Below are positions 28,727-60,262 of a DNA stretch of 64,000 bases, in pieces (the first letter of the stretch is position 1; each line of letters begins with the position of its first letter). The translations under genes and the position numbers were made by a program. Origin of the DNA: an uncultured Methanoregulaceae archaeon (GTDB lineage: Archaea; Halobacteriota; Methanomicrobia; Methanomicrobiales; Methanospirillaceae); the NCBI GenBank assembly GCA_963717525.1, contig OY970343.1, forward strand, positions 1,664,001 to 1,728,000, in the 5' to 3' direction. Below the pieces are notes generated by a model that did not search any database, was not told the origin of the DNA, and saw only the letters and a list, made by a program, of their open reading frames with translations.

Positions 28727-28796
28727 GCATCTACGGTTGATGGCAGATCTTTCACTTCGCGATAATTTGAGTATCAACCGCAGACGCAACAGAACC
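28727..28796 (+). repeat. Hairpin element family A, left-truncated copy
   Basis: Near-identical to 43444-43513; ends CGCAACAGAACC. Confidence 0.85.
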
Positions 28797-28975
28797 CTTT
28801 CAATGAGTATACCAAAACTCCCATTATTTCACGGATTCAGTGGACGCAAGTGAACTTTCAAAGGTATCAGCCATCCTGAATTTGATCCTTCAAAGAAAAA
28901 TAATAAGCCGCCTAAGACCGGGCAAAATTATCGTAGTGCTAAAATAACAACCAGCATGAAAATTATTCAGTCTCA

Positions 28976-29626
28976 TCAAAAAACCAGCAACTCTTTTCGG
29001 TAAAACCATTTGTTTACCAGCCATATGAGGATCCCGATAAAAACCCATGATAATTCGGCTAAATAGGTATTAAATACTGCAATTCCTATCGAAATGAGAA
29101 ACACTCCTGATCCACTCAGCAGGCGTATGACTCTGTAATGCACATACCCTTGCGTGATGTCAGTGTCCGAGAGCCTGCGGTGTTTTGTTGCATACCACCA
29201 GAGCGCAGCCAGGACAACCCCGGCACATGCCTGGGTCAGGGCATAAAATATCACTGCAACCGGTGTCTCAGGATACTCGATGATCAGCGAGGTGTGGAAT
29301 GGGATGAGGGTGATAAAGAAAAGGAATGAAAAGTTCAGTACAGTAACGGTCCGGTCCAGTTTTTTTATATGCTGGAAAATATGGTGATGGGCCATCCACC
29401 ATTCGCTGATGATGATAAAACTAATGATATAGATTAAGAACGTCGGCCATTCACTGAGAAGACGTACCGGGAGTTCCGCGGCGGTGTTGCCTTTTGTAAC
29501 AACAGGGACTGCAAGCGAGAGGACCATGAGGGTGATTGCAAATGCGAATATGCAGTCCGTGAGATTGATCAGGCGCTCGAGGTTTTTGAAAAACTGGTAC
29601 GTTGAATGGGTTTTTTCCGGAGGCAT
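28976..29626 (-). CDS. TMEM175/DUF1211 family K+ channel-like protein
   Basis: RL..LTDCIFAFAITLMVL, WWMAHH.IF. Confidence 0.85.
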   Translation of the reverse strand: MPPEKTHSTYQFFKNLERLINLTDCIFAFAITLMVLSLAVPVVTKGNTAAELPVRLLSEWPTFLIYIISFIIISEWWMAHHHIFQHIKKLDRTVTVLNFSFLFFITLIPFHTSLIIEYPETPVAVIFYALTQACAGVVLAALWWYATKHRRLSDTDITQGYVHYRVIRLLSGSGVFLISIGIAVFNTYLAELSWVFIGILIWLVNKWFYRKELLVF

Positions 29627-29651
29627 AGTTACCTGATCTCTGTTTCTCTCA

Positions 29652-30135
29652 TTAAGTTTCGCTTCTGGCAAGTTCACGATCGATCTCTTTTCGTTTCTTC
29701 TCATAATTGTCTCCCTGCTTGCCCAAGCGCGTATCGAGACCGGGACATACTGGTCGTTTCAAACCCTCTCCATACAGTACCGCCCAGTATACGGTCCTGA
29801 TGAGGCTGTGGATTGCATTTTTTCCTGCCGAATCTTTGCCGATAACGCTGAAAGCACCATTCCGGTAGGCCTCTCCTTTGATACTCTGGTCGTCATCATA
29901 TGAGGTGAAAAGAATGAAAGGAGTTGTGCTACCTCTGGAACGTAGTTCCTGTAAAAACTGGAATCCCATTCATCCCTGACATCTGGTAATCGGAGATGAT
30001 GCATTCATACGTCAAGGAGGCCATCTTTTTGATTGCATCAGATACCGATGATGCCTTATCGACATCTATCTCTCCAGTTCGTTCGAAAAATAAGGTGCAG
30101 ATCTCAAGCAGGTCGGGGTCATCGTCCACGTGCTC
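29652..30135 (-). pseudogene. Response regulator receiver protein, frameshifted or 5'-truncated
   Basis: HVDDDPDLL...IISDYQM..MNG then FLQELR...PFILFT in another frame. Confidence 0.7.
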
Positions 30136-30273
30136 ATTGCGCTCGGAGTAACCGGATTTAGAATCTACGCTGAAGATATCGTCAGGCATGCGCCACCGGA
30201 TCGCCTGGTATAATCCGGGCGGGCGGCAGGCAAATCTTATTATGGAGTGCAGGCCATCCTTGACCGTTGCAGT

Positions 30274-30675
30274 ATGACAAGTGAAAAGATGTTGCAGGAA
30301 ACCGCGTCACGCCTGAGTGAGTTCCTGATGGCAAGAAATGTCATGGGTGAATCGATCGATATCGGTGACAAGATAGTAATCCCCGTGGCACGGTTTGGAT
30401 TTGGCTTTGGCGCAGGAGAGGGCAGCGGAAAAAACGGTGGTGGAGAAGGAGCGGGCGCAGGTGGAGGGGTCGAGCCGGTTGCACTCATCATCCTCCACAA
30501 GGACGTGAAGGGACCGGAAGGGGTACAGGTTATGTCCATCAGCAAGGAAAACCCTATCGCCCAAGTGATCTCGGCGCTGAGCGAGACACTCGCGCCACAG
30601 GTAATTCAAGCGATCAAATCTATGGACAAGAAGATGCCGGCAGGGCAGGATACGAAAAAGTCGAACGATTTATAA
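30274..30675 (+). CDS. GerW/YtfJ family protein
   Basis: IVIPVARFGFGFGAGEG...GAGGGVEPVA. Confidence 0.85.
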   Translation: MTSEKMLQETASRLSEFLMARNVMGESIDIGDKIVIPVARFGFGFGAGEGSGKNGGGEGAGAGGGVEPVALIILHKDVKGPEGVQVMSISKENPIAQVISALSETLAPQVIQAIKSMDKKMPAGQDTKKSNDL

Positions 30676-30705
30676 TAGTCAAAAAAACCGCTATCTGGCG
30701 CTGGT

Positions 30706-31377
30706 ATGGACACGATCCTTCTCATCCTTTTTGTTACCGCAGGCATCTGCGGTGTTTTGGTCATCTCAGCGCTCATCATTTACGCGGTCCCGGTTCAGTT
30801 CGCCGTCATCTATGTCCGGGAAAAGGGGCGGGAAGAGAGCACGGTAACCGTCTCGTGGGGACCGGCATCTTGTTCTCTATCTCGTGGAGCCCGACAGAGA
30901 CTCACGCGTGTCCTTTTCAGCGGCAGGATGATCTGGTCCCGTTTGAAGCTAGACGAACCCACGCCGGCAGATACAGCCGAACCCGCATCCCACGGTCCGG
31001 GCTTATCAACCGTTGAGATCCTTGATATTGTCCCTCCTATTATTGGGGATGCAGGGACATTTTTGGGGGAACTCTACCGGCAAAGTCATCTTGTCAGAAT
31101 GACCGGAACAATCCGGATTGGGATGGAGAACCCGGCCGCCACCGGTATGCTCTATGGTGGATATTGGGTCTCCCGGTTCGCTCTGAACGCATCACGGATC
31201 TTCATTGAAATGGAACCGGTATTTGGGGAACGGGTACTGGTACTGGACATTACGATGCGCCTCCGGATACACAACACCCTCGCCCTTATTATCCCGGGAA
31301 TCGCGCTCATACGAAACCCGGCACTTCGGAGATTGTTTATCCTTCTTCGGCATCGAACTACGGGAATAGCAGCATGA
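30706..31377 (+). CDS. DUF2953-like membrane protein
   Basis: N-terminal TM; IGMENPAATGMLYG; next to YtfJ. Confidence 0.7.
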   Translation: MDTILLILFVTAGICGVLVISALIIYAVPVQFAVIYVREKGREESTVTVSWGPASCSLSRGARQRLTRVLFSGRMIWSRLKLDEPTPADTAEPASHGPGLSTVEILDIVPPIIGDAGTFLGELYRQSHLVRMTGTIRIGMENPAATGMLYGGYWVSRFALNASRIFIEMEPVFGERVLVLDITMRLRIHNTLALIIPGIALIRNPALRRLFILLRHRTTGIAA

Positions 31378-31649
31378 TAGAACCGGAGATCCGAATCCAA
31401 ACGCCGATCCGGTCCGGGGGTCGTTTTGTTGTCCCGGTCGTACGGGAGAACGGTTTTTCTGGCAGCTGCGGTACTACGGGGTTCGTAGACCCCGTCGCGC
31501 TTCTCTTCGAGGAAGCTGGGTGCTGGTATTTCGTCCCGCTCTTACCTGGTTTTTCCCAGAAGGAACTCGAATCGGCATTTGCCGTTGTAGGATTTGAACA
31601 AAAAAGGTCAACCACGCCTGAGAAGAATCCAACACTTGTGAGAAAGTAG
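31374..31649 (+). CDS. Small YtfJ-like hypothetical protein
   Basis: FVVPVVR...VDPVALL; coupled to upstream gene. Confidence 0.55.
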   Translation: MIEPEIRIQTPIRSGGRFVVPVVRENGFSGSCGTTGFVDPVALLFEEAGCWYFVPLLPGFSQKELESAFAVVGFEQKRSTTPEKNPTLVRK

Positions 31650-31669
31650 TCAGGTGCTGAATTTGTATT

Positions 31670-32320
31670 TTACCCTTCATTTTTATCTGTTTGATCATTC
31701 TTTTTTCGGAGAAATCCCACAACAATGGATCCAACAATAAGAATTGAGATCCCGAGAATAGCCAAAGTGATATAATTGAAGTGCTCCTGAACGATTGGCA
31801 GGCTTCCAACGAAATATCCGGCGAGTATGAAAGTACAACTCCACAGGACGGCGCCTACGATGTTATAGGTAATGAACCATCGGTAGTTCATCCTGCCGAC
31901 ACCGGCAAGGAACGGTGCAACGGTCCGGATATAGGGAATAAACCGTGCGATAATAATGGTAAGACCGCCATACCGGGAAAAATATTCCTCAGTTTTCTCC
32001 AGATGACCTTTTTTCACATGCTTTTCGAGTACCTTCATCCCCTTCGTTTTTGCGATCCAGTAATTGACCGAATCCCCTAGCACCGCGGCAGCACAGAGTG
32101 TGATGATCAGGATCTCAACATTTAAAGAACCTGAGCTCGCAAACGCCCCTGCAATAAAGAGAAGCGAATCCCCGGGAAGAAAGGGAAATATCACAAAGCC
32201 CGTTTCGGAAAAGATGAGCACAAAAAGGATCAGGTACGTCCAGAACCCATAGGTCTGGATAATACCCGGCAGGTACTTATCGATGTGAATAATGAGATAA
32301 AAAAGAGTGGAGAGATCCAT
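31670..32320 (-). CDS. DedA/VTT family protein
   Basis: FSETG..PFLPGDSLLF, ARFIPYIRT. Confidence 0.9.
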   Translation of the reverse strand: MDLSTLFYLIIHIDKYLPGIIQTYGFWTYLILFVLIFSETGFVIFPFLPGDSLLFIAGAFASSGSLNVEILIITLCAAAVLGDSVNYWIAKTKGMKVLEKHVKKGHLEKTEEYFSRYGGLTIIIARFIPYIRTVAPFLAGVGRMNYRWFITYNIVGAVLWSCTFILAGYFVGSLPIVQEHFNYITLAILGISILIVGSIVVGFLRKKNDQTDKNEG

Positions 32321-32368
32321 GGATAGTAACGATATACCTATCCGATAAATATAAGATTATCGCAACAA

Positions 32369-32447
32369 GGTGCTGTTACATCTGCGGTTGGTGGCAGATA
32401 TTACAAGTCTTAAGAATTTGTGTATCGACAGTAGACACACCAGAACC
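32369..32447 (+). repeat. Hairpin element family A (79 bp)
   Basis: GGTGCTGTTACATCTGCGGTTG...CGACAGTAGACACACCAGAACC. Confidence 0.85.
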
Positions 32448-32471
32448 GAAAAATAAAAAAGAGGATTTTAT

Positions 32472-32888
32472 TTATATGGCTTTTTCGTGATTTGCATAGT
32501 GAAGATCTTTACAATAATCATGTAAGTATCCGCCACAATACTTACACGTGCACACGACCTCATTTGTCAGATTATCAATAAGGCGCGTGTTGGATGATCC
32601 CGTATGTTTGAGTAATTTATCCCCGCATTCAACGCAGCATATATCTTTTTCAGATATTCCTCCCTCCTCGAGATTCTTGAGATAACGACTGTATGCGGAA
32701 CTCCCCAGTCCATCTTTATGTTTCTCGTTGTGCACTGCGGCACAAGCATCGTGAATAAACCCTCCACAAAACGGGCATATCCTTCTCTCTTTTTTGGATG
32801 AACCAGGTTTATGGGGTACTATTTTACCGCCACATTCACCACAAAAAGCATTCAACCCGCTATCTGGCATCAACGTTTCTCTTGTCAT
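32472..32888 (-). CDS. Protein with two repeated Cys/His zinc-finger units
   Basis: CGEC..CPFCGGFIHDAC..H and CVEC..CKYCGGYLHDYC..H. Confidence 0.75.
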   Translation of the reverse strand: MTRETLMPDSGLNAFCGECGGKIVPHKPGSSKKERRICPFCGGFIHDACAAVHNEKHKDGLGSSAYSRYLKNLEEGGISEKDICCVECGDKLLKHTGSSNTRLIDNLTNEVVCTCKYCGGYLHDYCKDLHYANHEKAI

Positions 32889-32935
32889 ACAATCGGGACT
32901 TTGTATTTTCTTAAGACATATAGTTTATTAAAACA

Positions 32936-33015
32936 GGGTCTGTTAACCTGTTAGGGAATTATCAAATTTCCAATGCCTGATAAACTATCCGATCCCACGT
33001 CAGGTTAACAGAACC
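32936..33015 (+). repeat. Hairpin element family A (80 bp)
   Basis: GGGTCTGTTAACCTG...CAGGTTAACAGAACC. Confidence 0.8.
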
Positions 33016-33080
33016 AAAAAAAAGCAACCTTAAAATATCCCATGAGCAGAATTCACGTATAAACCCTGAGGTAGATTAGT

Positions 33081-33695
33081 ATGCCTGAAACAACTGCTTC
33101 TCCGCAACCTTCTGCAGATGTGGAATTGGAAAAGGAACTGGAAGAATTACGTTGGTTTACCAATCCCGGACTCCATCCCTGGTGGGTCGTCCTTCTGTGG
33201 GGGATCCTTGCCGTTATCATCGGTATTATGTTCCTCGCATCTCCGGGCATTACAACGCTCGTCTTTGCCACATTCCTTGGTGCCTACTGGCTTGTCAGTG
33301 GTATCTTCTCGCTCATCAGTCTTGCCTTCGACAGGAGCCATATGGGATGGAAGATTTTTCTGGCAGTTCTCAACCTCATCGCGGGTCTCATCATCCTCTG
33401 TTACCCGCTGGTCTCCACCATCTTCCTGCTTCTGTTCTTTGTGGTCTTCATCGGGGTATGGGCGCTCTTTATCGGTGGTGCTCACCTCTATCATGCCTTT
33501 ACCTTTAAGGATGCGGGAAACGGCATCCTGGGAATCATCAGTATTATTTTCGGTCTCCTGCTCCTTCTCTACCCGCTGGTCTCAGCCGCGCTCGTTCCTT
33601 TCATTGCCGGGATCTTCGCTATTGTAATTGGTATCATTGCCATGGTGGCCTCGTTCAAGGTAAAGGGGACACCCTCCCCTCAGGCGACTGCCTGA
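33081..33695 (+). CDS. HdeD/DUF308 membrane protein
   Basis: WWVVLLWGILAVIIG..P..T; repeated TM hairpins. Confidence 0.85.
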   Translation: MPETTASPQPSADVELEKELEELRWFTNPGLHPWWVVLLWGILAVIIGIMFLASPGITTLVFATFLGAYWLVSGIFSLISLAFDRSHMGWKIFLAVLNLIAGLIILCYPLVSTIFLLLFFVVFIGVWALFIGGAHLYHAFTFKDAGNGILGIISIIFGLLLLLYPLVSAALVPFIAGIFAIVIGIIAMVASFKVKGTPSPQATA

Positions 33696-33884
33696 TACTC
33701 ATCTTTTTTTATTGCCTGTTCATAGCATGGGACGATTGCCAGACAGGGAAAAAACTGGATTCTACGATCAGGGTTCAGAAAACCCGCCTCTTTCCCCACC
33801 CTCTATTTTTGGTTCAGTCACGGCTAAGTATCCCCGCTCCCAATCCTCTTTCACCCAACGGCGCCCGAGGGTGGAGTAAAAGAA

Positions 33885-34388
33885 ATGACTGACTTTGTTC
33901 AGACAAGCGAAATCAAGCATGCGGTTCGGAAACTTTCGAACCCGATCGAGGATGCGGTGACGTTCAATAACGTCGTCCAGTCCGTGATCGCTGCGAACCC
34001 CTTCGGGTGTGTATCGTATATGACCGCCGGCGAGAACCATCCCGCCGTGGAAAAGACCAGGGAAGCGTATACCGCGAAGATCGTCTACCAGGACAACGAC
34101 GCCAGGATCTGCGGCACGGGCACGCACCGGTTCATGAGCCTCGGCGGCTATAACAACGGCTCAGCCGCCATTCTCGCAAATGCTGCCCTCTCAACCGCAC
34201 ACGGGGGCATAGCCGCCCACGACTTCGACAGCGACACCTGGTCCGCGAACCTCAAGTGTCACGATCCCAACGGCGAGATCTACAATGTCGTGCTCTCCCG
34301 GGACCAGGTTATCCTGACATCCTATGAATCCGAGGATATCCGCACAAAGGTTGAGACCTGGGCCGACAGCGTGCCGGAACTGGCCTGA
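33885..34388 (+). CDS. Uncharacterised 167-aa protein, copy 2
   Basis: Paralog of 24723-25226. Confidence 0.85.
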   Translation: MTDFVQTSEIKHAVRKLSNPIEDAVTFNNVVQSVIAANPFGCVSYMTAGENHPAVEKTREAYTAKIVYQDNDARICGTGTHRFMSLGGYNNGSAAILANAALSTAHGGIAAHDFDSDTWSANLKCHDPNGEIYNVVLSRDQVILTSYESEDIRTKVETWADSVPELA

Positions 34389-34466
34389 ATTATCGACGAA
34401 ACGGCAGGAGACCGGGACCTTTCCGGTCAACCCTCTCCCTGCCGTTTTTCGCGGAGGGCCTCAAGA

Positions 34467-34628
34467 ATGGATATCGAATTTTCAATTATTGCCGGGCTCG
34501 TCCTCCCACTCTATCCCCTGCTGTTTGCCATCTACCAGAAAATTGGCAGGTACGATGAGATCGTCGAGGAGTTCAAGAAACTCCGGGACGAGCACCAGAA
34601 TTACCGGGAGAAGTACCATGGAACGTAA
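34467..34628 (+). CDS. 53-aa TM + coiled-coil protein (below ORF cutoff)
   Basis: MDIEFSIIAGLVLPLYPLLFAIYQKIGRYDEIVEEFKKLRDEHQNYREKYHGT; GGAGG upstream; overlaps next start. Confidence 0.65.
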   Translation: MDIEFSIIAGLVLPLYPLLFAIYQKIGRYDEIVEEFKKLRDEHQNYREKYHGT

Positions 34629-35118
34629 AATTGATACTGCACCAGAGGAGGACCGGGCACCTCGTCCGGTCGCCCGGGTCACCGGCCTGTACCGGGGCAC
34701 ATTCGCCGGGCTTGTCCCGCTCACCGTAAAAACCCCGCTGACACCGGACCAGGTGCGCCGGAACCCGATCTTCTACGAACTCGACCTGAACCACGAGTAT
34801 GCGGACGAGAACCTCATTATCGACCTCGTGTACGACAACCTTTCACCGCGCCGGCTGCCGGACCTTTTCCGGGGAACCGACATCCCCCGGGGCATCCGGT
34901 TCTGGCCGGACTGGTTTACCATCCCGCCCTATGACGAGATGCACGACCTCGACGGCCGCCGGGTATATCCCAGAGCGCCCGGCATCCACACCGTGCAGGT
35001 CCGGACTGCCTGCCGGAAGTTTGCACAGATAGGAAGGAGCCGGGATTTCTCACCGGAGAATGGCGGCTCCACGAGCCCGGTCTTCGAGATTATGATCGCC
35101 GGTGACGATCATGTTTGA
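34618..35118 (+). CDS. Hypothetical protein
   Basis: Operon-like overlaps on both sides. Confidence 0.7.
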   Translation: MERKIDTAPEEDRAPRPVARVTGLYRGTFAGLVPLTVKTPLTPDQVRRNPIFYELDLNHEYADENLIIDLVYDNLSPRRLPDLFRGTDIPRGIRFWPDWFTIPPYDEMHDLDGRRVYPRAPGIHTVQVRTACRKFAQIGRSRDFSPENGGSTSPVFEIMIAGDDHV

Positions 35119-35695
35119 GAACGAGACACAGACCCGGTGCGCCATCTGCGGCACCGGGGTCCTCCTCGGCGCAATCTTTCTTTTTGCACATTTCCCGGTC
35201 ATCCTGCTGGTGGTGCCGGTCGCGGTGCTCTTCCTCGGTCTTGTTGCCGACCCGGAGGAGACCCACGCGGTCTGGTACGGGATGCTTTCCACGATCGGCA
35301 TCTTTGACCTGTCCGCACTGACGGATGCAGAGCGGTCGTACTACGCTGAGAAACGGCATTATTTCTGGTTCGGCGAGGTCGCGATGGCCTCAGTGCTGGC
35401 CGATATGTTTGCCATCCCGGCCGGGATCTTCCTTGCGGGCCGGGCGGAGATGACCCTTGCATTCATCGGAGCGACGGTCCTCTTCCTGCCGCTCTTCGTG
35501 TTCCTGCCGAAGCTGATCCAGAGAGCGATGAAAGCGGACGTGGATGCCGCGATCAAGACATTCGGCAAGAACGAACAGGTGAAAAAGGTATTCTGGACTA
35601 TGTTCGTCGCTATGGCCGGACTGATGCTCGCCCGGGTCCTGGATCCGGCAACGGCGCAGCAGGTCGTGGGGGTGATCATGGGAATGGGTGGGTAA
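35111..35695 (+). CDS. Hypothetical membrane protein
   Basis: Several TM segments; followed by a T-tract. Confidence 0.65.
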   Translation: MFENETQTRCAICGTGVLLGAIFLFAHFPVILLVVPVAVLFLGLVADPEETHAVWYGMLSTIGIFDLSALTDAERSYYAEKRHYFWFGEVAMASVLADMFAIPAGIFLAGRAEMTLAFIGATVLFLPLFVFLPKLIQRAMKADVDAAIKTFGKNEQVKKVFWTMFVAMAGLMLARVLDPATAQQVVGVIMGMGG

Positions 35696-35754
35696 ATTCT
35701 TTTTTTTTACACGATTCCCCTTTTCATCGTTACGAAAACTTTACCGATGAGGGG

Positions 35755-37847: not shown

Positions 37848-37849
37848 GA

Positions 37850-42584: not shown

Positions 42585-43286
42585 TCAATCTGTTTTCCGA
42601 AGGAGTTCTTCAATAAATTCGAGTTGAAAACTCTGAAATTCCATGAGTTTTTGTGCCTGATTCGTCGCAAGATAATCAATTTTCTTATGAAGCCGGTGAA
42701 TTTCGGAGTCCGTATGGATGCTCACCTCGAAATCACGTTCGGCGTGGAGACGGTCCCTCACTTCCTGGCGGTTCTGGCTCATGATAATGATGGGGGCCTG
42801 GATCGCAGCGACTACTGACAGGACGAGGTTAAGCAGGATATAGGGATAGGGATCGAATGCCCGGGAGAGTAAAATAGTGGAGTTCAAGATAACCCACAAG
42901 AAAAGCATGGCGGTAAAAACCCCGATAAACGTCCAGCTCCCGGCGAATTCGGCGAGTCTGTCGGAGACGCGTTCGCCAAAGGTCATCCTCTTTTCATATT
43001 CAATATTGTCATTTTTAGGGAGATGATTCTCCACTGTCGTGTCATCACTGACTGTCCCTTTGAACGAGGCATATTCATTTTTTTCCTTCTCCGCTACATC
43101 ACGGATATAATGTATCCTGAACCGGTTGAGATCAGACTTACAGATGTATCCTTCGGGTGACCACGCTGGATGTTCCTTTGTGACGATATCAACGATCGAT
43201 GCAGGAACCAGCTCCGCAGGCACCAGGTCGTTTTTCCTCTTATGTATCCCGCAAATCTGGCAGGAGAATGTTCCCTGATCCGCCAT
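42585..43286 (-). CDS. DUF1003 membrane protein
   Basis: FAGSWTFI, FDPYPYILLNLVLS, QAPIIIMSQNRQ. Confidence 0.9.
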   Translation of the reverse strand: MADQGTFSCQICGIHKRKNDLVPAELVPASIVDIVTKEHPAWSPEGYICKSDLNRFRIHYIRDVAEKEKNEYASFKGTVSDDTTVENHLPKNDNIEYEKRMTFGERVSDRLAEFAGSWTFIGVFTAMLFLWVILNSTILLSRAFDPYPYILLNLVLSVVAAIQAPIIIMSQNRQEVRDRLHAERDFEVSIHTDSEIHRLHKKIDYLATNQAQKLMEFQSFQLEFIEELLRKTD

Positions 43287-43434
43287 CTCTTTTCCTCTCA
43301 CAACCACCAATGGGTCTTTACATTCTAATTAATTATCGGGACGGGGATAACTCCGGTATACCATTAATTTGTGAAAATTCGCATTTGTCCTGATTTATTT
43401 CCCAATGTTACATCAAACTATCAGAAACATCAAA

Positions 43435-43513
43435 GATGCTGTTGCATCTACGGTTGATGGCAGATCTTTCACTTCGCGATAATTTGAGTATCAGCCACAG
43501 ACGCACCAGAACC
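43435..43513 (+). repeat. Hairpin element family A (79 bp)
   Basis: GATGCTGTTGCATCTACGGTTGAT...ATCAGCCACAGACGCACCAGAACC; ~31-bp imperfect arms. Confidence 0.85.
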
Positions 43514-44304: not shown

Positions 44305-44396
44305 GGTGCTGTTGCGTTGTCGGGATCTTTAGATAGTCAATTTTGCTGGATCACGACGAAATCATTTTCATAAAGTCCCGTTAAAGCAACAGAACC
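44305..44396 (+). repeat. Hairpin element family A (92 bp variant)
   Basis: GGTGCTGTTGC..CGGGA...TCCCG..GCAACAGAACC. Confidence 0.8.
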
Positions 44397-52431: not shown

Positions 52432-52636
52432 CAATTTTAACAATATGACCTTGGATCGAAGGCATGGAGCGCGATCCATTGGCAATTTTGTGACAAGTGC
52501 GGGAAATGATGTTAGAATACATCAGATCCCGAAGACATTACAGAACTGCATACGGCATACTAGGGAAGGCATATATTGTCACCCTGACAAGAGACCACGA
52601 CAAGTCTGATGAATACACCATATAAGGAGATCGAAT

Positions 52637-52906: not shown

Positions 52907-53155
52907 GTCGCACTGCTGCATGCAGCGCCAGCATCGCCGGCAGGGAAGCGAACGAGGGGTTAAACCTGATGCCGGGGTAAAACGGGGCTCCTGGCCCACA
53001 GGACCGGCAAACGTGTCCAGGGACCCGTTCCATACGGCCTTTGCCATACCGGGGCTGTCACCGGCGGGAATACCAGCATGCCGCAGGGTACGGGTATCCG
53101 GGAGCCCGGCTAGTGCAGCCAACACATCACCGCTCCACTCCGTGATCTCTCCCGC
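52907..53155 (-). ncRNA. Putative structured ncRNA, copy B
   Basis: Motif blocks shared with copy A; TATA-like AT tract at ~53165-53185 upstream on the minus strand. Confidence 0.5.
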
Positions 53156-53257
53156 AATGACTATTTTTATGTAATTATATTTTTTTCCCATATTCCCGGA
53201 AAAGATATTTATTGATCTGAAAAGAATAGGAAAACGTACATCCGGTCACTCATCGTT

Positions 53258-54343: not shown

Positions 54344-54484
54344 TCTTTTTTCACAAAGGTAACGCCAAAGATTCTGGCGGACTTAAGATAACAGAACCAC
54401 CAGTGCAGACGTGCTGAGAGCGAGAATTTGGCTTTTTTAAAAGGAACGCAGGGTGGCAAAAGTGGAGTGGATCGATGAGGAGGG

Positions 54485-54563
54485 GGTTCTGTTGCACCCG
54501 CTGTTGACAGGTAAATTTATCCGAAGTGAAAAATCCGCTACCCACCGCAGATGCAACAGCACC
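54485..54563 (-). repeat. Hairpin element family A (79 bp, reverse)
   Basis: GGTTCTGTTGCACCCGCTGTTG...CCACCGCAGATGCAACAGCACC. Confidence 0.85.
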
Positions 54564-54613
54564 CCCTGGAATAAGGAGATTCATATGGCATGCGTGGATA
54601 TTGTTGATATGTC

Positions 54614-55270
54614 GTGCTTCCGATCATTGCAGCTATGCTGCCTCTTACCAGCCTCTCCACCCCGGGCCCGCTCCTGCAGTACGGGATATGGGTATACCTG
54701 CTGGTCTTCATCGTCATAACGCTCGCTTCAACTATCGTCGGCGGACTGATTCCCGACAACACGTTCCTGTTCCTTACCGGGGCGGTAGCCATTGGCAATG
54801 GGTTATCTATACTGTGGCTGTTCGTCATAGCGGTCGGTGGCGGGTTTGCGGGCTATGAGATCAACTACTGGAGCGGGAGGATTTTCGGGCTGGCCATCTG
54901 CCGGGGGATATGCCCGACAGTCCTCAACAACAGCAATGTCCAAAAGGCCCTCAATGTGATGGACCGGTTCGGTCTGGCCACTATGGTCTTTTCCCGATTT
55001 ATGCCAGTCCTGAACCTGCCATCATTTATCGCGGGAGTGAACGTGATGGAGTACCGCAGGTACTTTGGGTTTAATCTCATCAGTTCGATACTCTGGTGTG
55101 GGTCTCTCCTGATGCTTGGGTATTATATCGGGAGCATATCATTTGTAAGCGATTTCCTCAACAACCTCATGGACCTTTTCCTAGTCATCCTGGTAGTGGC
55201 GATAATCATCGCGATAGTTATGTTTGCCCGTGATTACGTGAAACGAAAAGGCAGCTGTTCTCCTGAATAA
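54614..55270 (+). CDS. DedA/VTT family protein
   Basis: IPDNTFLFLTG, SRFMP, AGVNVMEYRRY. Confidence 0.8.
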   Translation: MLPIIAAMLPLTSLSTPGPLLQYGIWVYLLVFIVITLASTIVGGLIPDNTFLFLTGAVAIGNGLSILWLFVIAVGGGFAGYEINYWSGRIFGLAICRGICPTVLNNSNVQKALNVMDRFGLATMVFSRFMPVLNLPSFIAGVNVMEYRRYFGFNLISSILWCGSLLMLGYYIGSISFVSDFLNNLMDLFLVILVVAIIIAIVMFARDYVKRKGSCSPE

Positions 55271-55281
55271 AAAAAGTCCGG

Positions 55282-55360
55282 TGTTCTGGTGCATTGGCGG
55301 GTGGTGACGACTTTTTCACCTCATTAAAATAATCAGGTAAACCTTCAATGTAACAGCACC
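55282..55360 (-). repeat. Hairpin element family A (79 bp, reverse)
   Basis: TGTTCTGGTGCATTGGCGG...CCTTCAATGTAACAGCACC; abuts the usp stop codon. Confidence 0.8.
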
Positions 55361-55798
55361 TTATTTGCTTTTCACCACGAGAACCATACATTCCGCCGTC
55401 CGTATAATGCTCTCGGCGACACTGCCCAAAAGCAGTCTTTCGAGGCCGCTCTTCCCCTGCGAGCCGACAACGATCAGGTCGACCTTGTTTTTTACGGCAA
55501 ACTTAGTGATTGCATGCGCAGGTCTGCCAGACAGAATGAAGGTCTCTAATTTTACCCCGTCTGCGATTTTTTTCACCTGTTCAATGGCCTTTTCTCCCTC
55601 GTCCTTTAATTTCAGATAAACCTCATCCGTCAGTACCTCCACCTGCGAAGATGTAAAAGGCGTTTCGTCGATTACATAGACGACATAGGTTGTAGATCCA
55701 AGTTCACGGGCCAGCTCTAAGCCTTTCTTCACGACAGGCTGGTTTTTCACCGATCCATCCGTTGTTATCAGAATTTTCTCAAATATCTTCGTCATCAT
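55361..55798 (-). CDS. Universal stress protein
   Basis: KILITTDGS, DLIVVGSQG, LLGSVAE. Confidence 0.9.
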   Translation of the reverse strand: MMTKIFEKILITTDGSVKNQPVVKKGLELARELGSTTYVVYVIDETPFTSSQVEVLTDEVYLKLKDEGEKAIEQVKKIADGVKLETFILSGRPAHAITKFAVKNKVDLIVVGSQGKSGLERLLLGSVAESIIRTAECMVLVVKSK

Positions 55799-55830
55799 TT
55801 CACCCTTTACCCTTCCGGGAATAAACCTTC

Positions 55831-57607
55831 TCATTCAGACATATCATAATAAGATTCACTTTCCGGCTCCGGTGTTTCTGCCGGATTTTCGGACTTCTTT
55901 TCATCGGTTTCGTACACATACCTCGATCCCCGCAGTGCGCATAACACTGCTGCAACAAAACAGATTGCTGCACCGATATAGAAGGAGATCCTGAGGGAAG
56001 GCATGAATGCCTGCGCAAGGGTGACCGGGAACCATGTTATGCCGGTCAGTGTTGTTATCGTTGCCGGGCTCAATGCAGCAACGACAGACTGTGGTACCGC
56101 AGCGAGGATGACGCGAACCGGATTATACCCCAGAAATGCTGCAAACAACGAACCCGTCGGGGGGAGGGCACTCATAGGTGCAATGAGACCTGGTGCCCCG
56201 GCACTCGTAAGTGATACAGCGAGAACGGGTGGAAAGGTCTGGGTCAGGCTGACGAGGATAATAGTAAAAAACATTCCCATGGAGATGACCATGCCGCTGT
56301 TTTGCAGCATTGTCCTCATTCCTGATGCAACACCCCTGTCTTCACTGGGCACTGCATTCATAATGGCCGCAATGTTCGGTGCCCCGAACATGCCATTCCC
56401 AAGCCCCATGATCAGGAGTGCAATCGCGAAGATCCAATAATCAAAGTTATATGGCAACACCGCAAGCATCAGGAAAGAAACGGCGGTTAAGACCATCCCA
56501 CCCGTCGCGAACAACCGGGACCCGTATTTATCAGAGAGCCAGCCGGAAAGGGGCCCCATGATCAGAAATCCGGCGGTGAGCGGCAGCATAAACACGCCGG
56601 CCCAGAAGGGTGTTGACTCGTAACTATAACCTTGGAGCGGCAGCCAGATGCCCTGAAGAAGGAGGATCAGCATGAACATCATCCCGCCCCGGGCAATTGC
56701 GCTCAGGAATCCGGCGATATTTGCAAGGGAGAAAATACGGTTCCTGAAAAGGCTTAATTTAAACATCGGGTCCTCGACACGGTTCTCGATAAACGGGAAT
56801 GCAACCAGTAAAATGACGCCGGCGACTATCGAAGCGATGACCCATGGACTGCCCCATCCCATCGGGTCGTTCCCGAAGGGAAGCAGTCCGTACGTGATCC
56901 CGATCAACAAGAGGGTCAGGCCGGCAAAGAACGTGAGGTTCCCCCATATATCGATCTTCCGGGCCCGTCTGGGTAACGGGGACTCTTTGAGTTTCAGGTA
57001 TGCCCATATCGTCCCAAGAATCCCGACCGGCACGCTGACGAGAAATACGTACCGCCAGTTGTAGAACGCAAGAATTCCTCCAAGGATAAGACCAATGAAC
57101 TGGCCCGACAGGAATGCAATCTGGTTGAGACCCAGCGCCTTGCCCCGTTCATTGGGAGGGAATGCATCGGTGAGAATTGCGGCGCTGTTCGAGAAGGTAA
57201 ACGAAGCCCCTACGGCCTGGACGAGGCGGAAGACGATAATCTCGATGGCACCGGTGTCACCGGTGCCGGGCGTGAGAAAAAGCAGGATGGATCCGAAGGT
57301 GAAAATCGCAAAGCCGATATTGTAGAGTTTCACCCGGCCGTACATGTCCGAGAGCCGGCCGCAGGAAAGGAGCAGGGTCGCGGTGACGAGGCTGTATCCC
57401 ATCAGCACCCAGATCAGGGTACTGGAACGAGGTGAACGGATCGATATTGATTCCGTTGAATATCGCAGGGAGCGAGATGAGGGTAATGCTGCCGTTCACG
57501 GATACCATGAACATCTCGATGGTCGTAATCGAGAGTACGATCCACTTGTAGTCGATGCCCTTTTTTACAGACCCTGTTCCAATGCCTGTAGGTTCGCTGT
57601 TTTCCAT
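55831..57607 (-). CDS. MFS transporter (14-TM), frameshifted near 57415
   Basis: [12 protein letters not shown]-terminus in ORF 57257-57607. Confidence 0.9.
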
Positions 57608-57872
57608 GAGATCGGGCTACCCCCGGAGTTATACGGGCATTCTCCTGAACCTATAATTTACAGGATAAGATCTTTTCAGACAATAATGTTTTTCAGAATT
57701 CCTGCAGAAGATCGATTGCATGACTCCATCAAGGTTGACTATTCAAACGTCACGCAGACGCGTCAGTGCCTAATCATATCGCAACCGGTTTGGTATGAGG
57801 CCGGCCATAATAGATCGTATCTCAATTTCCCCAATCCGTACATTTATACGATCATGGATGAGAATGGCTTCC

Positions 57873-58288
57873 ATGCCACTCAAAGAGCAGATCATGGAAG
57901 TCATCAGTGGTCCCCATGTTGCAGCGGTTGCAACACTGGACGGCAAGCTCCCGGCGGTCCGATTCATGGTGCTTGCCCGGCCTACCAGACATGACCCTTG
58001 TCGGGGCAACGATGAAATCCTCGAAAAAGGTCGAACAGCTGAAGAAAAACCCTGACACGGCTCTTGCCATCTGGTCGGGAAAGGAATATTCCGACCCATA
58101 TGTCGAGATCAGGGCAAAGGGCAAGGTCCACGAAGATATTGCCACGAAGAAAAAGTACCTGGAACCCGATGCTCGAACAGCACTTCAAAACGCCGGAGAA
58201 TCCGGATTTTGTCGTGATCGTGTTCACCGCAGGCGAGATTGCGTATCACGGGAAGAATATGTCAAGCATGGAGATCTGGAAACGCTAA
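57873..58288 (+). CDS. Pyridoxamine-oxidase-like (general stress) protein, two frameshifts
   Basis: AVATLDGKLPAVRFM, S.KVEQLKKNP, WNPML..F..PENPDF across three frames. Confidence 0.75.
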
Positions 58289-58398
58289 AAAAGATTCCGG
58301 TTTTGCCGGCAGGAAGTGCATCGTTGGCGGAATGCCTGTTCCTCCCGGACTTTCCCAAAAGGGAAACCACCTCTTTTTAGGTACTCTTCGGGAAGGTA

Positions 58399-59428
58399 TC
58401 AGAGTCGCAGGAGGCGTTCCGCGTTTCCGTGCGCTATCCTGTTCTTATCCGCACGGCTCACCGGGAGGTTTTCGAGGAAGGTGCGTGCTTCCGCCATGGA
58501 ACTGTACGGGTAGTCGGCAGAGAACAGGATCCGGTCGGCCCCGACCTGAAGATACAGGTTGAGGAAGGTCTGGATAAAGTTGAAACCGCTGAACGAATAG
58601 TCCACATTCTCCCGGAGGTAGTCTGCGACAGGATGCTCAAGCTTCGTAACGTTCGTGGACAGACCTTTGTCGAGCCGGGGCATCATGAAAGGAAGAGCCT
58701 CCCCCATGTGGCCGATCACGATCTGGAGATCCGGGAACTGGTCGAACGCTCCACCGAGGATGAGGCGGAGGACATGGACTGCAGTCTCGATATGCCAGCC
58801 CCACCCGTGCCGGGAGAACCCGTTTACTACCTCGGGTGAGAAGCCTGAATAGTACGCCTCAATCACCGGCGCCGGTGGTGGTGTCGGGTGGATGCAGAGG
58901 GGAACTTTGAGCGCATCGGCACGCTCTAAGATCGGCCAGAAGAATTTGTCATCGAGGTAGCAGCCCCGGGTGTGTCCGTTGATCCATCCTCCTTTGAAGC
59001 CATGTTCTTTGACCATACGTTCCAGCTCATCAGCAGCAATGTCGGGAGCGGCGGTTGGCAGTGTGGCAAATCCGGCGAACCGCCGGGGATACCGCCGTAC
59101 CGCCTCCGCAAGATAGTCATTCGCTTCGCGGGCCAGTTTTACGGCCCCGGCCGCGTCGAGTTGCTGCACCGAGGGGTCGGTCAGCGACAATACCTGCACG
59201 TCGATACCTGCGGCATCCATTTCAGCGATTCTCTTCTCACCGAGATCCAGCAAATCTTCGGCCATACTCCCGGAACCGATGCGACCTGTCATCCTTGGCT
59301 GGTCTTTGAGTCTTTGTCCCGGGCCGTCCAGAAATGCAGGGCTCGCATAGTGCTCTTCAAGGGTGATCGTCCGCGTGATTTCGCGATCTCCGGGGTGAGA
59401 TAATGGTACAGGGGGCCTTCCTTGCCAT
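58399..59428 (-). CDS. Amidohydrolase_2 family metal-dependent decarboxylase/hydrolase, 5' frameshift
   Basis: ITLEEH, IHP, GHMGE, FSADYPY. Confidence 0.85.
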
Positions 59429-59503
59429 AATCCACATTCAGAGGCATGTCCTAAAATAAATTCTCATAGATCATAATTCAGGTAAAAAGGGAACGTGAGG
59501 ATC

Positions 59504-60172
59504 ATGAAACTCAATTTTGAAAAAGCAGTTTCCTATATTGATACCTTATATGAAAATGATGAAGCGTTCAAAAAAAAGTATGTTGAATCCACTGGCCTGA
59601 AAAACTTCGGAACCGTAGTGGATAGCGACGTTTCAAGAATGATGCAGATAGTGATACATCTGGTACGACCGCAAAAAATCTTAGAAATCGGGACAAGTAT
59701 CGGCTATTCAACAGTATCAATGGCAAAAGTTGCTCAGGGATACGGCGGCACAATTACCACGATTGAGTACGATGAGCAGTCAGCACAGCAGGCAATAAAA
59801 AATTTCAGGTATAGCGGTGTTGCCGAATGTATCGAGGTAATAATCGGGGATGCAAAGGAAATAATTCCGACTCTCGACGAAAGGTATGATTTGATATTCC
59901 AGGATGTCGGGGATAAAACCCTGTATCCTGTTTTGTTTGACCGTTTGGTTGCCCTGCTGAAACCCGGTGGCGTGTTCATGGCTGAAGATTCCCTTTTTCC
60001 GGTTATGGACGCGGATATATCCAAACCCGCAGACGTTGATCGAATGAAAAGGATGAAAAGATCCTTTGAATCACTTGAAGAATTCAACAGGATGGTTGCT
60101 CATAATCCCTGTTTAAGGAGCACAATACTTCCTATCGGCGACGGGTTAACTATCGGCATAAAAACAGGTTAA
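59504..60172 (+). CDS. O-methyltransferase
   Basis: ILEIGTSIGYST, LPIGDGL. Confidence 0.9.
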   Translation: MKLNFEKAVSYIDTLYENDEAFKKKYVESTGLKNFGTVVDSDVSRMMQIVIHLVRPQKILEIGTSIGYSTVSMAKVAQGYGGTITTIEYDEQSAQQAIKNFRYSGVAECIEVIIGDAKEIIPTLDERYDLIFQDVGDKTLYPVLFDRLVALLKPGGVFMAEDSLFPVMDADISKPADVDRMKRMKRSFESLEEFNRMVAHNPCLRSTILPIGDGLTIGIKTG

Positions 60173-60180
60173 TATGAGGG

Positions 60181-60262
60181 GAGCCTGCTGAGGCGTTTAT
60201 GGTTGGCAACCAGTAATTCAGCTCGTTAAAATATTCACATCAAAAGTGAACGCACCAGCACC
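60181..60262 (-). repeat. Degenerate hairpin element family A copy
   Basis: Ends CGCACCAGCACC; left part has GCGTTTATGGTTG vs consensus GCGTCTGCGGTTG. Confidence 0.5.

What the first reader, a model, noticed from the sequence alone, without database searches (positions are those of the whole stretch)
28727..60262. Family of ~79-bp hairpin sites flanking single genes as cassettes: candidate new gene-capture system
Seen: six complete copies (32369-32447, 32936-33015, 43435-43513, 44305-44396, 54485-54563 reverse, 55282-55360 reverse) plus partial or degenerate ones (28727-28796, 60181-60262, possibly 42461 and 54390). They share ends G(G/A)TGCTGTT...(A/C)ACAGAACC and five of the six are 79-80 bp. 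Interiors differ but remain self-complementary, e.g. TTGCATCT/AGACGCA versus TTAACCTG/CAGGTTAA, which looks like compensatory change. Same-orientation pairs each enclose exactly one gene (Zn-finger, DUF4013, DedA). I see no target-site duplications and no recombinase or transposase in the window. Known: IS6-family ends such as IS257/IS431 GGTTCTGTTGCAAA resemble these termini, and directly repeated IS6 copies form pseudo-compound transposons; integron attC sites conserve hairpin structure over sequence. Inference: structure-selected recombination sites mobilising one-gene cassettes in trans, functionally integron-like but with GTT on the left and AAC on the right, opposite to attC.
Basis: partly seen in the sequence, partly recalled or inferred. 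Interest (0 to 1): 0.9.

Follow-up and report, generated by a model that had tools for sequence, protein, structure and literature searches.

The report
IS6-like mini-elements bracketing methanogen genes
A methanogen genome carries about 58 copies of an 80-base palindrome made of the two ends of a jumping gene, and these copies sit at the borders of single genes and gene islands and probably help to shuffle them: a new twist on a known kind of mobile DNA, not a new integron.

Summary
All six complete copies lie at the stated coordinates, and two of the four partial ones are confirmed. A covariance model finds about 58 such sites in this 2.29-Mb mcrA-bearing genome, clustered in accessory islands, and also in 8 of 18 same-genus genomes.

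The sites are not attC-like hairpins of a new recombinase. Their arms match (20-24 of 26 bases) the terminal inverted repeats of two cargo-carrying transposons elsewhere in the genome. These transposons hold the genome's only two IS6/IS240-type DDE transposase genes, and each has a perfect 8-bp target duplication. The arm covariation follows transposase and repeat lineages. I found no strand-specific wobble bias and no integron integrase.

The small sites are not ordinary MITEs either. None of 81 examined has a target duplication. They lie at duplication and synteny breakpoints (17 repeat-match ends against 4.7 expected) and bracket single genes (11 intervals). One metagenome contig has a single site where this genome has 14.6 kb between two direct, 67/70-identical sites.

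Best reading: trans-acting IS6-like mini-elements that drive IS26-style, duplication-free rearrangements of neighbouring genes. The mechanism is inferred, not shown. This is a new variant of a known kind.

The parts
1..81 (+). site copy at the window edge (genome 1663998-1664081; its first 3 bases lie before the window)
   Evidence: covariance-model match E 5.0e-10; it was in the seed alignment A1
7865..7886 (-). solo arm (half-site), tip at 7886
   Evidence: position-weight-matrix score 17.6. It lies at the edge of an 89.9% repeat shared with genome 793477-794040, which starts in site 793412-793490
28718..28796 (+). type-A site with its left tip lost (a 32-nt deletion relative to contig L072); left direct repeat of the 14.6-kb segment
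   Evidence: model E 2.8e-8, not in the seed; alignment with L072
28797..43434 (.). 14,638-bp segment (21 ORFs of at least 70 aa, including MsrA, MsrB, two AhpC/TSA, FMN reductase, DedA, TMEM175, DUF1003) between two direct sites that are 67/70 identical; absent from metagenome contig L072
32369..32447 (+). type-A site, 79 nt
32472..32888 (-). 138-aa ORF with four CxxC pairs (no Pfam match), bracketed by two sites
32936..33015 (+). type-D site, 80 nt; strong hairpin (z -4.64)
42588..43310 (-). DUF1003 gene; an 82.5% copy at genome 1139262-1140020 is bracketed there by sites 1139177 and 1140041
43435..43513 (+). type-A site, 79 nt; right direct repeat of the 14.6-kb segment
43514..44304 (+). 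DUF4013 cassette (gene 43581-44279). A 95.9% copy lies at genome 1107488-1108282. The homology starts at the first base after the left site and ends 6 nt into the right site
   Evidence: also bracketed by sites in relative G037
44305..44396 (-). type-C site, 92 nt; arms resemble the repeats of Element B
52526..52547 (-). possible solo arm, tip at 52547
   Evidence: matrix score 16.5 only; not followed up
54485..54563 (-). type-A site, 79 nt
54614..55270 (+). DedA/VTT-domain gene bracketed by two sites
   Evidence: intact in contigs of two other studies
55282..55360 (+). type-A site, 79 nt; abuts the stop codon of the Usp gene 55361-55834
57749..57770 (-). half-site: the left arm of the composite site genome 1295589-1295699. 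A 92.6% segmental duplication (window about 57715-59433) ends inside it
60187..60262 (+). degenerate site
   Evidence: model E 2.8e-4

Best explanation
The 78-93-nt sites are miniature, non-coding, double-ended derivatives of an IS6-like DDE transposon family. Each is two ~25-bp terminal inverted repeats set back to back, tips outward, around a 25-40-nt loop.

Autonomous relatives lie in the same genome, outside the window. Element A is genome 2070743-2077067 (6.3 kb) and carries a DNA methylase and an HNH endonuclease as cargo. Element B is 1834962-1838924 (4.0 kb). Each encodes a 394/398-aa transposase with a SWIM zinc finger, a zinc ribbon and an IS240-type DDE domain.

The palindrome, and its 'compensatory' variation, exist because both arms must fit the same transposase. 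Distinct site types (A-D) track distinct transposase and repeat lineages.

Inferred step. The transposase acts in trans on the tips of these mini-elements as IS26 does on its ends. It would form cointegrates, adjacent deletions and circular 'translocatable units' (one site plus neighbouring DNA), which re-insert next to another site without a target duplication. Repeated events would produce site-gene-site arrays, doublets of sites, composite sites, loss of any original duplication, and insertion/deletion variants flanked by direct sites.

Shown: the identity of the ends, the 8-bp duplications of the large elements, the absence of duplications at small sites, the breakpoint association, and one candidate empty allele.

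Inferred: that the transposase causes these rearrangements, and by which chemistry.
For: (1) Ends. A matrix built from site arms finds solo arms that bound the only two PF13610 genes in the genome. Both elements have perfect 8-bp duplications, CCCTTAGT and TCTTAAAA. Two decayed elements in relatives also have paired ends with duplications of 8/8 (G019) and 7/8 (G014). Single matching ends lie next to transposase genes in G003 and G015; the G015 end is the type-B arm. Transposon ends match site arms at 20-24 of 26 bases, whereas random 26-mers reach at most 15.

(2) Family. Pfam DDE_Tnp_IS240 scores 55.4 and 50.4 bits in hmmscan, (58 and 52.8 in the genome search), against a cut-off of 27. The best NCBIfam match is the IS6 family transposase, over the full model length. 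The tips carry GG and CTGT, as in the IS6 consensus of Varani et al. 2021 (PMC7986276, passages read).

(3) No duplication at small sites. In 58 sites the flanks match at 2.45 of 8 bases on average, against 2.14 for shuffled pairings. In 38 sites with intact tips there are 0 exact repeats of 3-8 bases. The 23 sites examined in relatives' loci match at 0-5 of 8.

(4) Breakpoints. 17 of 380 ends of intragenomic repeat matches lie within 40 bp of a site. Pseudo-sites placed in random intergenic gaps give 4.69 +/- 2.82, and 2 of 2000 simulations reach 17. The DUF4013 cassette repeat (95.9%) begins at the first base outside site 43435-43513, although the neighbouring sites of the two copies are unrelated.

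(5) Clustering. 17 of 57 gaps between neighbouring sites are under 1.5 kb (2.2 expected; maximum 9 in 2000 simulations). There are 11 single-gene intervals and 6 doublets 24-272 bp apart. Pairs 600-1300 bp apart recur in G002, G003, G009, G015 and G018.

(6) Empty allele. Metagenome contig L072 joins window 28399-28796 (with one site) at the site's tip to window 43514-44084. This genome has 14,638 bp plus a second, direct, 67/70-identical site there. The L072 site resembles site 1 to within 8 nt of the tip.

(7) Element B is inserted in the 8 bp that abut the tip of another end at 1838933. This is one case of insertion directly beside an existing end.

(8) Composite sites with tandem arms or nested copies occur at 504472, 1126514, 1140023 and 1295589.
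Against: Flanking sites are not in the direct orientation that IS26 pseudo-compound transposons require. Of 19 neighbouring pairs, 2 are direct, 5 inverted and 12 ambiguous. They are barely more alike than random pairs (0.638 against 0.608; 112 of 5000 random sets reach this).

The two DUF4013 copies share neither flanking site, which a simple unit of 'site plus gene' would predict.

Solitary sites also lack duplications, so every site must have had both flanks replaced, or have arrived by an unknown route.

Of the four relatives with 11 or more model matches, only G015 has a transposase homologue. G002, G009 and G018 have none found, though these are 81-85% complete draft genomes.

The transposases fall just under NCBIfam's IS6 cut-off (113.6 and 112.5 bits against 125). 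The autonomous elements are 4-6 kb with cargo, unlike 0.7-0.9-kb IS6 members.

The empty allele rests on one 1001-bp contig, which could be an assembly chimera across the repeated site. None of 107 genus genomes shows that arrangement.

Contigs from two other studies carry the DedA cassette unchanged. No circular junction was seen, but only contigs, not reads, were available.
Confidence: 0.6

Rival explanations
1. Inert, old MITEs. The sites were once inserted by ordinary transposition, mostly into AT-rich spacers of accessory islands, and now do nothing. Their link with breakpoints and gene borders would reflect the islands they live in, homologous recombination between copies, and the fact that repeats end at gene ends.
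For: Copies are old: within-type pairwise identity is about 0.5-0.8. Site 484580 is at an orthologous position in G003, so sites can be inherited vertically. In several cases the breakpoint equals a gene end. The DedA cassette is fixed in two other populations. Most site-rich relatives lack the transposase.
Against: A duplication that decayed at the same rate as the sites should still match at 4-5 of 8 bases. The observed 2.45 is close to the random 2.14, and 0 of 81 sites has one. The excess of breakpoints survives a control restricted to intergenic gaps (2 of 2000). The DUF4013 repeat and the L072 junction end at site tips, not inside the sites as homologous recombination predicts.
Confidence: 0.25
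2. One reading: structure-selected single-strand hairpin sites, recombined like integron attC sites by a site-specific (tyrosine) recombinase that captures one-gene cassettes.
For: Arm covariation is strong. Lengths and interiors vary while the ends are conserved. There are no target duplications. Arrays of one-gene intervals exist. Divergent tyrosine recombinase genes lie 1-5 kb from three clusters, at genome 153295-154632, 1101224-1102690 and 1271596-1272546.
Against: No integron integrase: TIGR02249 scores at best 45 bits against a cut-off of 265. The nearby recombinases give only weak XerA-like matches, and two of them are copies within a 2.4-kb, 99.2% repeat. The same covariation holds between repeats 4-6 kb apart on full-length elements, where no hairpin forms. 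G-T and A-C mismatches are 118 against 110 with no strand bias per copy (p 0.955). 3 of 6 window copies fold no better than shuffles. Sites show no preference for 3' ends of genes (57 against 59) and no common orientation.
Confidence: 0.07
3. Host-domesticated palindromes: binding sites for a SWIM/DDE-derived DNA-binding protein, or RNA hairpins, that regulate or insulate the stress and membrane genes beside them.
For: Tips and arms are more conserved than loops within types: 0.70-0.84 and 0.65-0.77 against 0.50-0.60. Sites lie 0-50 bp from gene ends. An orthologous site is kept in G003. Sites are enriched at strand switches: 31 of 58 against 40% genome-wide.
Against: Distribution in the genus is patchy (8 of 18 genomes). 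No Rfam family matches. Position relative to gene starts or ends is not consistent. Neighbouring genes are heterogeneous. Both transposon copies have intact ends and fresh duplications, so they look active rather than domesticated.
Confidence: 0.05

Closest known systems
IS6/IS26 family insertion sequences, their pseudo-compound transposons and translocatable units (Varani et al. 2021, PMC7986276; Harmer and Hall 2019, PMC6807381; passages read)
   Same: DDE transposase of the IS240/IS6 type. 8-bp target duplications at the autonomous copies. Repeats with GG at the tip followed by CTGT. Rearrangements that leave copies without duplications and genes bracketed by copies.
   Different: The transposases are 394/398 aa, with a SWIM zinc finger and a zinc ribbon at the N-terminus, and score under NCBIfam's IS6 cut-off. 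The autonomous elements are 4.0 and 6.3 kb with cargo and a second, subterminal copy of the repeat motif; the review lists a single IS6 member with a passenger gene. The bracketing units are 80-nt mini-elements, not full insertion sequences, and are not consistently direct repeats. The 'caaa' part of the IS6 repeat consensus is absent.
Prokaryotic MITEs, including the two IS6-family MITEs in ISfinder (227 and 336 bp) and the MITE pairs that flank and mobilise integrons in Acinetobacter (Minnick 2024, PMC10969869; passages read)
   Same: Non-coding, multicopy, made of the two ends of an autonomous element and dependent on its transposase in trans. Pairs can flank genes.
   Different: No target duplication at any of 81 copies, which is a defining feature of a MITE. 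They are much shorter (78-93 nt), being little more than the two repeats. Several co-existing repeat lineages occur in one genome. The host is an archaeal methanogen.
Integron attC sites and gene cassettes
   Same: Imperfect palindromes with conserved ends and variable interiors and lengths. One-gene intervals in arrays. No target duplication. A single site at one candidate empty locus.
   Different: No IntI. The conserved core has the opposite polarity (the attC definition is recalled, not from a call). Sites are not tied to the 3' ends of genes or to one orientation. There is no sign that one strand folds. The ends belong to a DDE transposon.
Mobile insertion cassettes
   Same: Passenger genes moved in trans by a transposase that recognises flanking IS ends.
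   Different: In those cassettes the gene lies inside one pair of inverted repeats. Here the genes lie outside, between complete double-ended mini-elements.

Membership tests
IS6/IS26 family (autonomous Elements A and B) | DDE transposase of the IS6 (IS240) type | tested here: inconclusive
   Pfam PF13610 scores 55.4 and 50.4 bits against a cut-off of 27, so this is met (58 and 52.8 in the genome search). NCBIfam NF033587 is the best hit over model positions 1-201 of 202, but scores 113.6 and 112.5 bits against a cut-off of 125, so this is not met.
IS6/IS26 family (autonomous Elements A and B) | 8-bp target-site duplication | tested here: met
   A has CCCTTAGT on both sides and B has TCTTAAAA on both sides. 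G019 remnant 8/8, G014 remnant 7/8.
IS6/IS26 family (autonomous Elements A and B) | Short terminal repeats with GG at the tip, then cTGTt and caaa motifs (Varani 2021) | tested here: inconclusive
   GG and CTGT(T) are present in A, in end C and in most site arms; B has CTGAT. The caaa motif is absent.
IS6/IS26 family (autonomous Elements A and B) | Simple 0.7-0.9-kb element with one transposase gene | tested here: not met
   The elements are 6325 and 3963 bp with several further ORFs, including a DNA methylase and an HNH endonuclease in A.
IS6/IS26 family (autonomous Elements A and B) | Transposition through cointegrates | not testable with these tools
   Needs a mating-out or plasmid-fusion assay.
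MITE (the small sites) | Terminal inverted repeats that match those of an autonomous element | tested here: met
   20-24 of 26 bases; random best is at most 15.
MITE (the small sites) | Small, non-coding, multicopy | tested here: met
   78-111 nt. I kept 58 loci from 111 both-strand matches, of which 34 were in the model's seed.
MITE (the small sites) | Flanking target-site duplication | tested here: not met
   0 of 38 intact-tip sites has an exact repeat of 3-8 bases. 58 sites average 2.45 of 8 against 2.14 for shuffled pairings. 23 sites in relatives match at 0-5 of 8.
Integron | Integron integrase IntI | tested here: not met
   TIGR02249 over the whole genome: best 45 bits against a cut-off of 265. 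The genome is 87% complete by marker genes.
Integron | attC core polarity (..AAC at the 5' box, GTT.. at the 3' box; definition recalled) | tested here: not met
   On either strand the sites read ..CTGTT at the 5' arm and AACAG.. at the 3' arm.
Integron | One site at the 3' end of each cassette gene, all in one orientation | tested here: not met
   57 adjacencies to 3' ends against 59 to 5' ends. Neighbouring pairs: 2 direct, 5 inverted, 12 ambiguous.
IS26-type pseudo-compound transposon / translocatable unit | Passenger DNA between directly repeated copies | tested here: inconclusive
   Met for the 14.6-kb segment, whose flanking sites are direct and 67/70 identical. Not met as a rule: 2 direct, 5 inverted, 12 ambiguous.
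IS26-type pseudo-compound transposon / translocatable unit | One copy left at the empty locus and no target duplication | tested here: inconclusive
   One 1001-bp metagenome contig (L072) fits. No genome of 107 in the genus does. A chimeric assembly is not excluded.
IS26-type pseudo-compound transposon / translocatable unit | Circular intermediate holding one copy plus the passenger | not testable with these tools
   Only assembled contigs of the runs were available, not raw reads.

The most novel reading that the evidence does not exclude
An archaeal, DDE-transposase-based counterpart of the integron. In this reading, an IS6-like SWIM-finger transposase uses 80-nt, duplication-free, double-ended mini-elements as portable recombination sites. 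It excises 'one site plus adjacent DNA' circles and re-inserts them at the tip of any resident site. This would build arrays of single-gene cassettes and move whole islands, such as the 14.6-kb oxidative-stress island, in methanogen chromosomes.
Probability: 0.3. Interest if true: 0.8.

Novelty: new variant of a known kind. Interest (0 to 1): 0.55.

Why it matters
If the mechanism holds, the IS26-style 'translocatable unit' route would operate in archaea. That route is known mainly from antibiotic-resistance regions of bacteria. It would also need nothing more than two 25-bp transposon ends as a site, which gives methanogens a cheap way to shuffle and exchange accessory genes: stress defence, membrane proteins and regulators. 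It would also define a class of MITE-like elements that never carry target duplications, which MITE finders that require such duplications would miss.

Even on the conservative reading, the result has value. It assigns about 58 unexplained palindromes per genome to a transposon family. It shows that 'compensatory' change in a palindrome can come from co-evolution of repeats with their transposase rather than from selection on a hairpin.

Tried and rejected
Rfam at gathering thresholds gave no family in the window, and the window has no tRNA.

My first look for inverted repeats within 300 bp of the two transposase genes found nothing. The true ends lie 0.7-3.4 kb away and were found later with a matrix of site arms. 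A loose regular-expression search for half-sites was too noisy to use.

I searched for duplications shared between different sites, which would trace intramolecular transposition. There were 6 pairs at 7-8 of 8 matches, about what chance gives, and none involved neighbouring sites.

Synteny searches with window 30200-35700 and 53258-57408 in 60 genus genomes found the genes scattered singly. Species are too far apart for presence/absence calls. At 55360 the homology edge coincides with a stop codon, so it is uninformative.

I laid contigs of four runs from four other studies on window 42000-61000. No clean empty allele appeared. The DedA cassette is spanned intact by a 10.2-kb contig (X5) and a 6.3-kb contig (X9). 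DUF4013 lies at about double depth, as expected for two copies. A joint 43514<->45014 on opposite strands in three runs has one end exactly at a site tip, but I could not interpret it from contigs.

The earlier-findings index had nothing on this genome, sequence or topic.

Literature searches and passages of PMC7986276, PMC6807381, PMC10969869 and PMC13343696 turned up no description of this family or of duplication-free IS6 mini-elements. Supplements were not opened, and subscription journals and ISfinder itself are outside the library, so prior description is not excluded.

I did not run the large protein searches, structure prediction or complex prediction, because the family assignment did not need them.

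Full report
WHAT IS THERE. The window is bases 1664001-1728000 of a single-contig, 2.288-Mb genome with 54.5% G+C. The genome encodes McrA, so the host is a methanogenic or methane-cycling archaeon.

The end words are far over-represented: GRTGCTGTT occurs 6 times against 0.75 expected, and MACAGAACC 7 times against 0.88. They are looser than written, though. One copy starts GGGTCTG, and three end in CCAGAAC.

I aligned 34 copies from the whole genome (A1) and built a covariance model (R1). The model gave 111 both-strand matches at E<=1 in the genome. From these I kept 58 distinct loci: 55 at E<1e-3 plus three weaker composite ones. The 34 seed copies match by construction.

In the window the model confirms the degenerate copies at 28718-28796 and 60187-60262. 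It does not confirm those proposed at 42461 and 54390. It adds a copy at the window's first 81 bases.

The consensus is GGTTCTGT-NNN-GTT-NN-CGG ... loop ... CCG-NN-AAC-NNN-ACAGAACC. At least four types are visible. Type A is 79 nt, type B 80 nt, type C about 92 nt and type D 80 nt.

The sites are intergenic, usually 0-50 bp from an ORF end (ORFs from my own crude longest-ORF caller). They cluster in islands at about 137-152 kb, 504-526 kb, 793-798 kb, 1104-1140 kb, 1267-1307 kb and 1648-1734 kb.

The family is patchy among relatives. It is found in 8 of 18 same-genus genomes and in 1 of 12 genomes of other families of the order.

WHOSE ENDS THEY ARE. The window holds no transposase or recombinase among the 90 ORFs scanned. 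The genome, however, has exactly two genes with the IS6-type DDE domain PF13610.

A position-weight matrix made from the site arms finds strong solo arms that bound both genes. Element A is 2070743-2077067, 6325 bp. Element B is 1834962-1838924, 3963 bp. Each has inverted ends that start GGTTCTG, a second subterminal copy of the motif, and a perfect 8-bp direct repeat of the target: CCCTTAGT for A and TCTTAAAA for B.

In relatives, decayed elements in G019 and G014 show paired ends with 8/8 and 7/8 target repeats. In G003 and G015 a matching end lies beside the transposase gene. The G015 end is the type-B arm, and the G015 transposases are only 39-40% identical to that of Element A.

The ends of the large elements match arms of the small sites at 20-24 of 26 positions, while random 26-mers reach 15 at most. 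Type A resembles Element A, type C resembles Element B, and type B resembles the G015 element.

The transposases are 394 and 398 aa and 77% identical to each other. They carry a SWIM zinc finger, a zinc ribbon and the DDE domain. Their best NCBIfam family is 'IS6 family transposase' over its whole length, at 113.6 and 112.5 bits, just under the cut-off of 125.

Target repeats of 8 bp and tips with GG followed by CTGT are the IS6 hallmarks given by Varani et al. 2021 (PMC7986276, passages). Length, cargo (a DNA methylase and an HNH endonuclease in A) and the missing 'caaa' motif are not typical of IS6. I therefore call the family IS6-like.

HAIRPIN OR PAIRED ENDS? Covariation between the two arms is strong. 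85.9% of cells pair against 70.9% in shuffles; 14 of 17 pairs show double changes; 0 of 500 shuffles reach the observed score.

But the same co-variation is seen between the left and right ends of the full-length elements, which lie 4-6 kb apart. It therefore follows from two ends having to fit one transposase lineage.

If one strand had to fold, G-T wobbles should outnumber A-C mismatches on that strand. Across 58 sites I count 118 against 110, plus 251 transversion mismatches, and no per-copy bias (p = 0.955). Only 3 of the 6 window copies fold better than shuffled sequence. I see no evidence for selection on a single-strand hairpin. This does not exclude cruciform or hairpin intermediates.

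NOT AN INTEGRON. No integron integrase is present: TIGR02249 scores at best 45 bits against a cut-off of 265.

Divergent tyrosine recombinase genes do lie near three clusters. They give only weak XerA-like matches, and two of them are copies inside a 2.4-kb, 99.2% repeat.

Sites adjoin 3' ends of genes 57 times and 5' ends 59 times. Neighbouring sites are direct in 2 cases, inverted in 5 and ambiguous in 12.

NOT ORDINARY MITES EITHER. The large elements have perfect target repeats; the small ones have none. For 58 sites the mean match is 2.45 of 8 against 2.14 for shuffled pairings. For 38 sites with intact tips there is no exact repeat of 3-8 bases. For 23 sites in five relatives the match is 0-5 of 8.

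Decay cannot explain this. Copies of one type are still 50-84% alike, so a decayed repeat should still match at 4-5 of 8 bases.

WHAT THE SITES DO TO THEIR SURROUNDINGS. First, they pair up. 17 of 57 gaps between neighbouring sites are under 1.5 kb (2.2 expected; maximum 9 in 2000 simulations). There are 11 intervals holding a single ORF and 6 doublets 24-272 bp apart. Similar pairs 600-1300 bp apart recur in five relatives, around unrelated genes (TetR, an HTH regulator, hypotheticals).

Second, they mark breakpoints. 17 of 380 ends of intragenomic repeat matches lie within 40 bp of a site. Pseudo-sites in random intergenic gaps give 4.69 +/- 2.82, and 2 of 2000 simulations reach 17. Synteny with relatives also breaks at sites.

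The clearest case is the DUF4013 cassette of the window. Its 95.9% copy at 1107488-1108282 matches from the first base after site 43435-43513 to 6 nt into site 44305-44396, while the sites next to the two copies are unrelated.

The same gene is bracketed by sites in relative G037, with the downstream site starting at the same junction. In four other relatives it has no sites.

A 92.6% segmental duplication ends in the middle of composite site 1295589-1295699 and leaves a half-site at window 57749-57770.

Third, there is one candidate filled/empty pair. Metagenome contig L072 (1001 bp) runs from the MazE-like gene at window 28399 through one type-A site and then, exactly at the site's tip, into the DUF4013 cassette at window 43514. 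This genome has 14,638 bp (21 ORFs, many for oxidative-stress defence) plus a second site there. The two flanking sites are direct repeats, 67 of 70 identical.

The L072 site resembles site 1 to within 8 nt of its right tip. A crossover inside the sites is therefore unlikely, and a join at the tip fits better.

The caveats are real. This is one short contig that could be a chimera across the repeated site, and no genome of 107 in the genus shows that arrangement.

Fourth, Element B sits in the 8 bp that abut the tip of another end. Composite sites with tandem or nested arms also exist. Ends therefore attract further events.

MECHANISM. The best-supported reading is as follows. The sites are the minimal substrate of an IS6-like transposase that is supplied in trans. 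The rearrangements at their tips follow the IS26 pattern described in PMC7986276 and PMC6807381: cointegrates, adjacent deletions, and translocatable units that re-enter beside a resident copy without target duplication.

This accounts for the missing duplications, the tip-precise borders, the arrays, the doublets and the 14.6-kb insertion/deletion.

Several observations count against it. There is no rule of direct orientation. The two DUF4013 copies share no flanking site. Solitary sites also lack duplications. Three site-rich draft genomes have no detectable transposase. I have no circle junction or assay.

I put 0.85 on 'ends of an IS6-like transposon family' and about 0.45 on the IS26-like mobilisation, for 0.6 on the combined statement. 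The main rival (0.25) is that the sites are inert relics sitting in recombination-prone islands.

NOVELTY. IS6-family elements, their MITEs (two in ISfinder, 227 and 336 bp) and MITE-flanked gene mobilisation are all known.

Three features are new as far as the searches and the passages read can show. The first is an archaeal IS6-like lineage with a SWIM-finger transposase and cargo. The second is 80-nt double-ended derivatives in several co-existing lineages. The third is their consistent lack of target duplication, together with the bracketing of single genes.

This is a new variant of a known kind. It is worth a bench test but is not a new class of system.

Noticed in passing
genome 2070743-2077067 (locus L049): Element A carries an N6/N4 DNA methylase (PF01555, 163.6 bits) and an HNH endonuclease gene beside the transposase. 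This is a restriction-modification-like cargo on an IS6-like transposon.
   Followed up: partly
genome 152325-154726 and 1271502-1273907: A 2.4-kb repeat, 99.2% identical, holds a divergent tyrosine recombinase with a coiled-coil tail (445 aa). The second copy is frameshifted to 316 aa. A paralogue of 488 aa lies at 1101224-1102690. All three lie 1-5 kb from site clusters.
   Followed up: partly
window 35758-38950: An oxidative-stress block: MsrB, MsrA fused to glutaredoxin, and two paralogous AhpC/TSA-redoxin genes (a 300-nt repeat at 74%). It lies inside the 14.6-kb segment that contig L072 lacks.
   Followed up: no
window 43514 and 45014: Contigs of three runs from three studies join 43514 to 45014 on opposite strands (depth 5.5-17, short side 44 nt). 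Position 43514 is the first base outside site 43435-43513. There is also a 524-bp skip, 45060 to 45585, in two runs. Neither is explained.
   Followed up: partly
genome 1648873-1655540 (just before the window): A 6.6-kb stretch matches itself at many offsets of about 255 bp at 75-83% identity. It looks like a long internal tandem repeat, probably a giant repeat protein gene.
   Followed up: no
locus L060 11778-12138; genome 508926-509273, 968543-968903, 404660-405000 and others: A 320-360-bp sequence family with about 20 copies (66-79% identity) is scattered over the genome. One copy abuts site 509280. Its nature is unknown.
   Followed up: no
window 29655-30189: A response-regulator receiver domain is split over two overlapping ORFs (105 and 86 aa), so the gene is probably frameshifted.
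   Followed up: no
window 48682-50100: A 473-aa Kelch/beta-propeller protein with five to six internal DNA repeats about 150-170 bp apart.
   Followed up: no
window 4767-5063, 22655-23023, 23534-24057, 28413-28730: Several toxin-antitoxin-like genes occur in the window: two minimal nucleotidyltransferases, a ParE-like gene with a VapB/DUF7557 partner, and a MazE/AbrB-like gene. This fits an accessory island.
   Followed up: no
genome 1118717 and 1305095: Two solo arms with top matrix scores (28.7 and 26.9) end a 1.05-kb, 97% repeat (1117677-1118718 and 1305094-1306142). This may be a truncated third transposon present in two copies.
   Followed up: no
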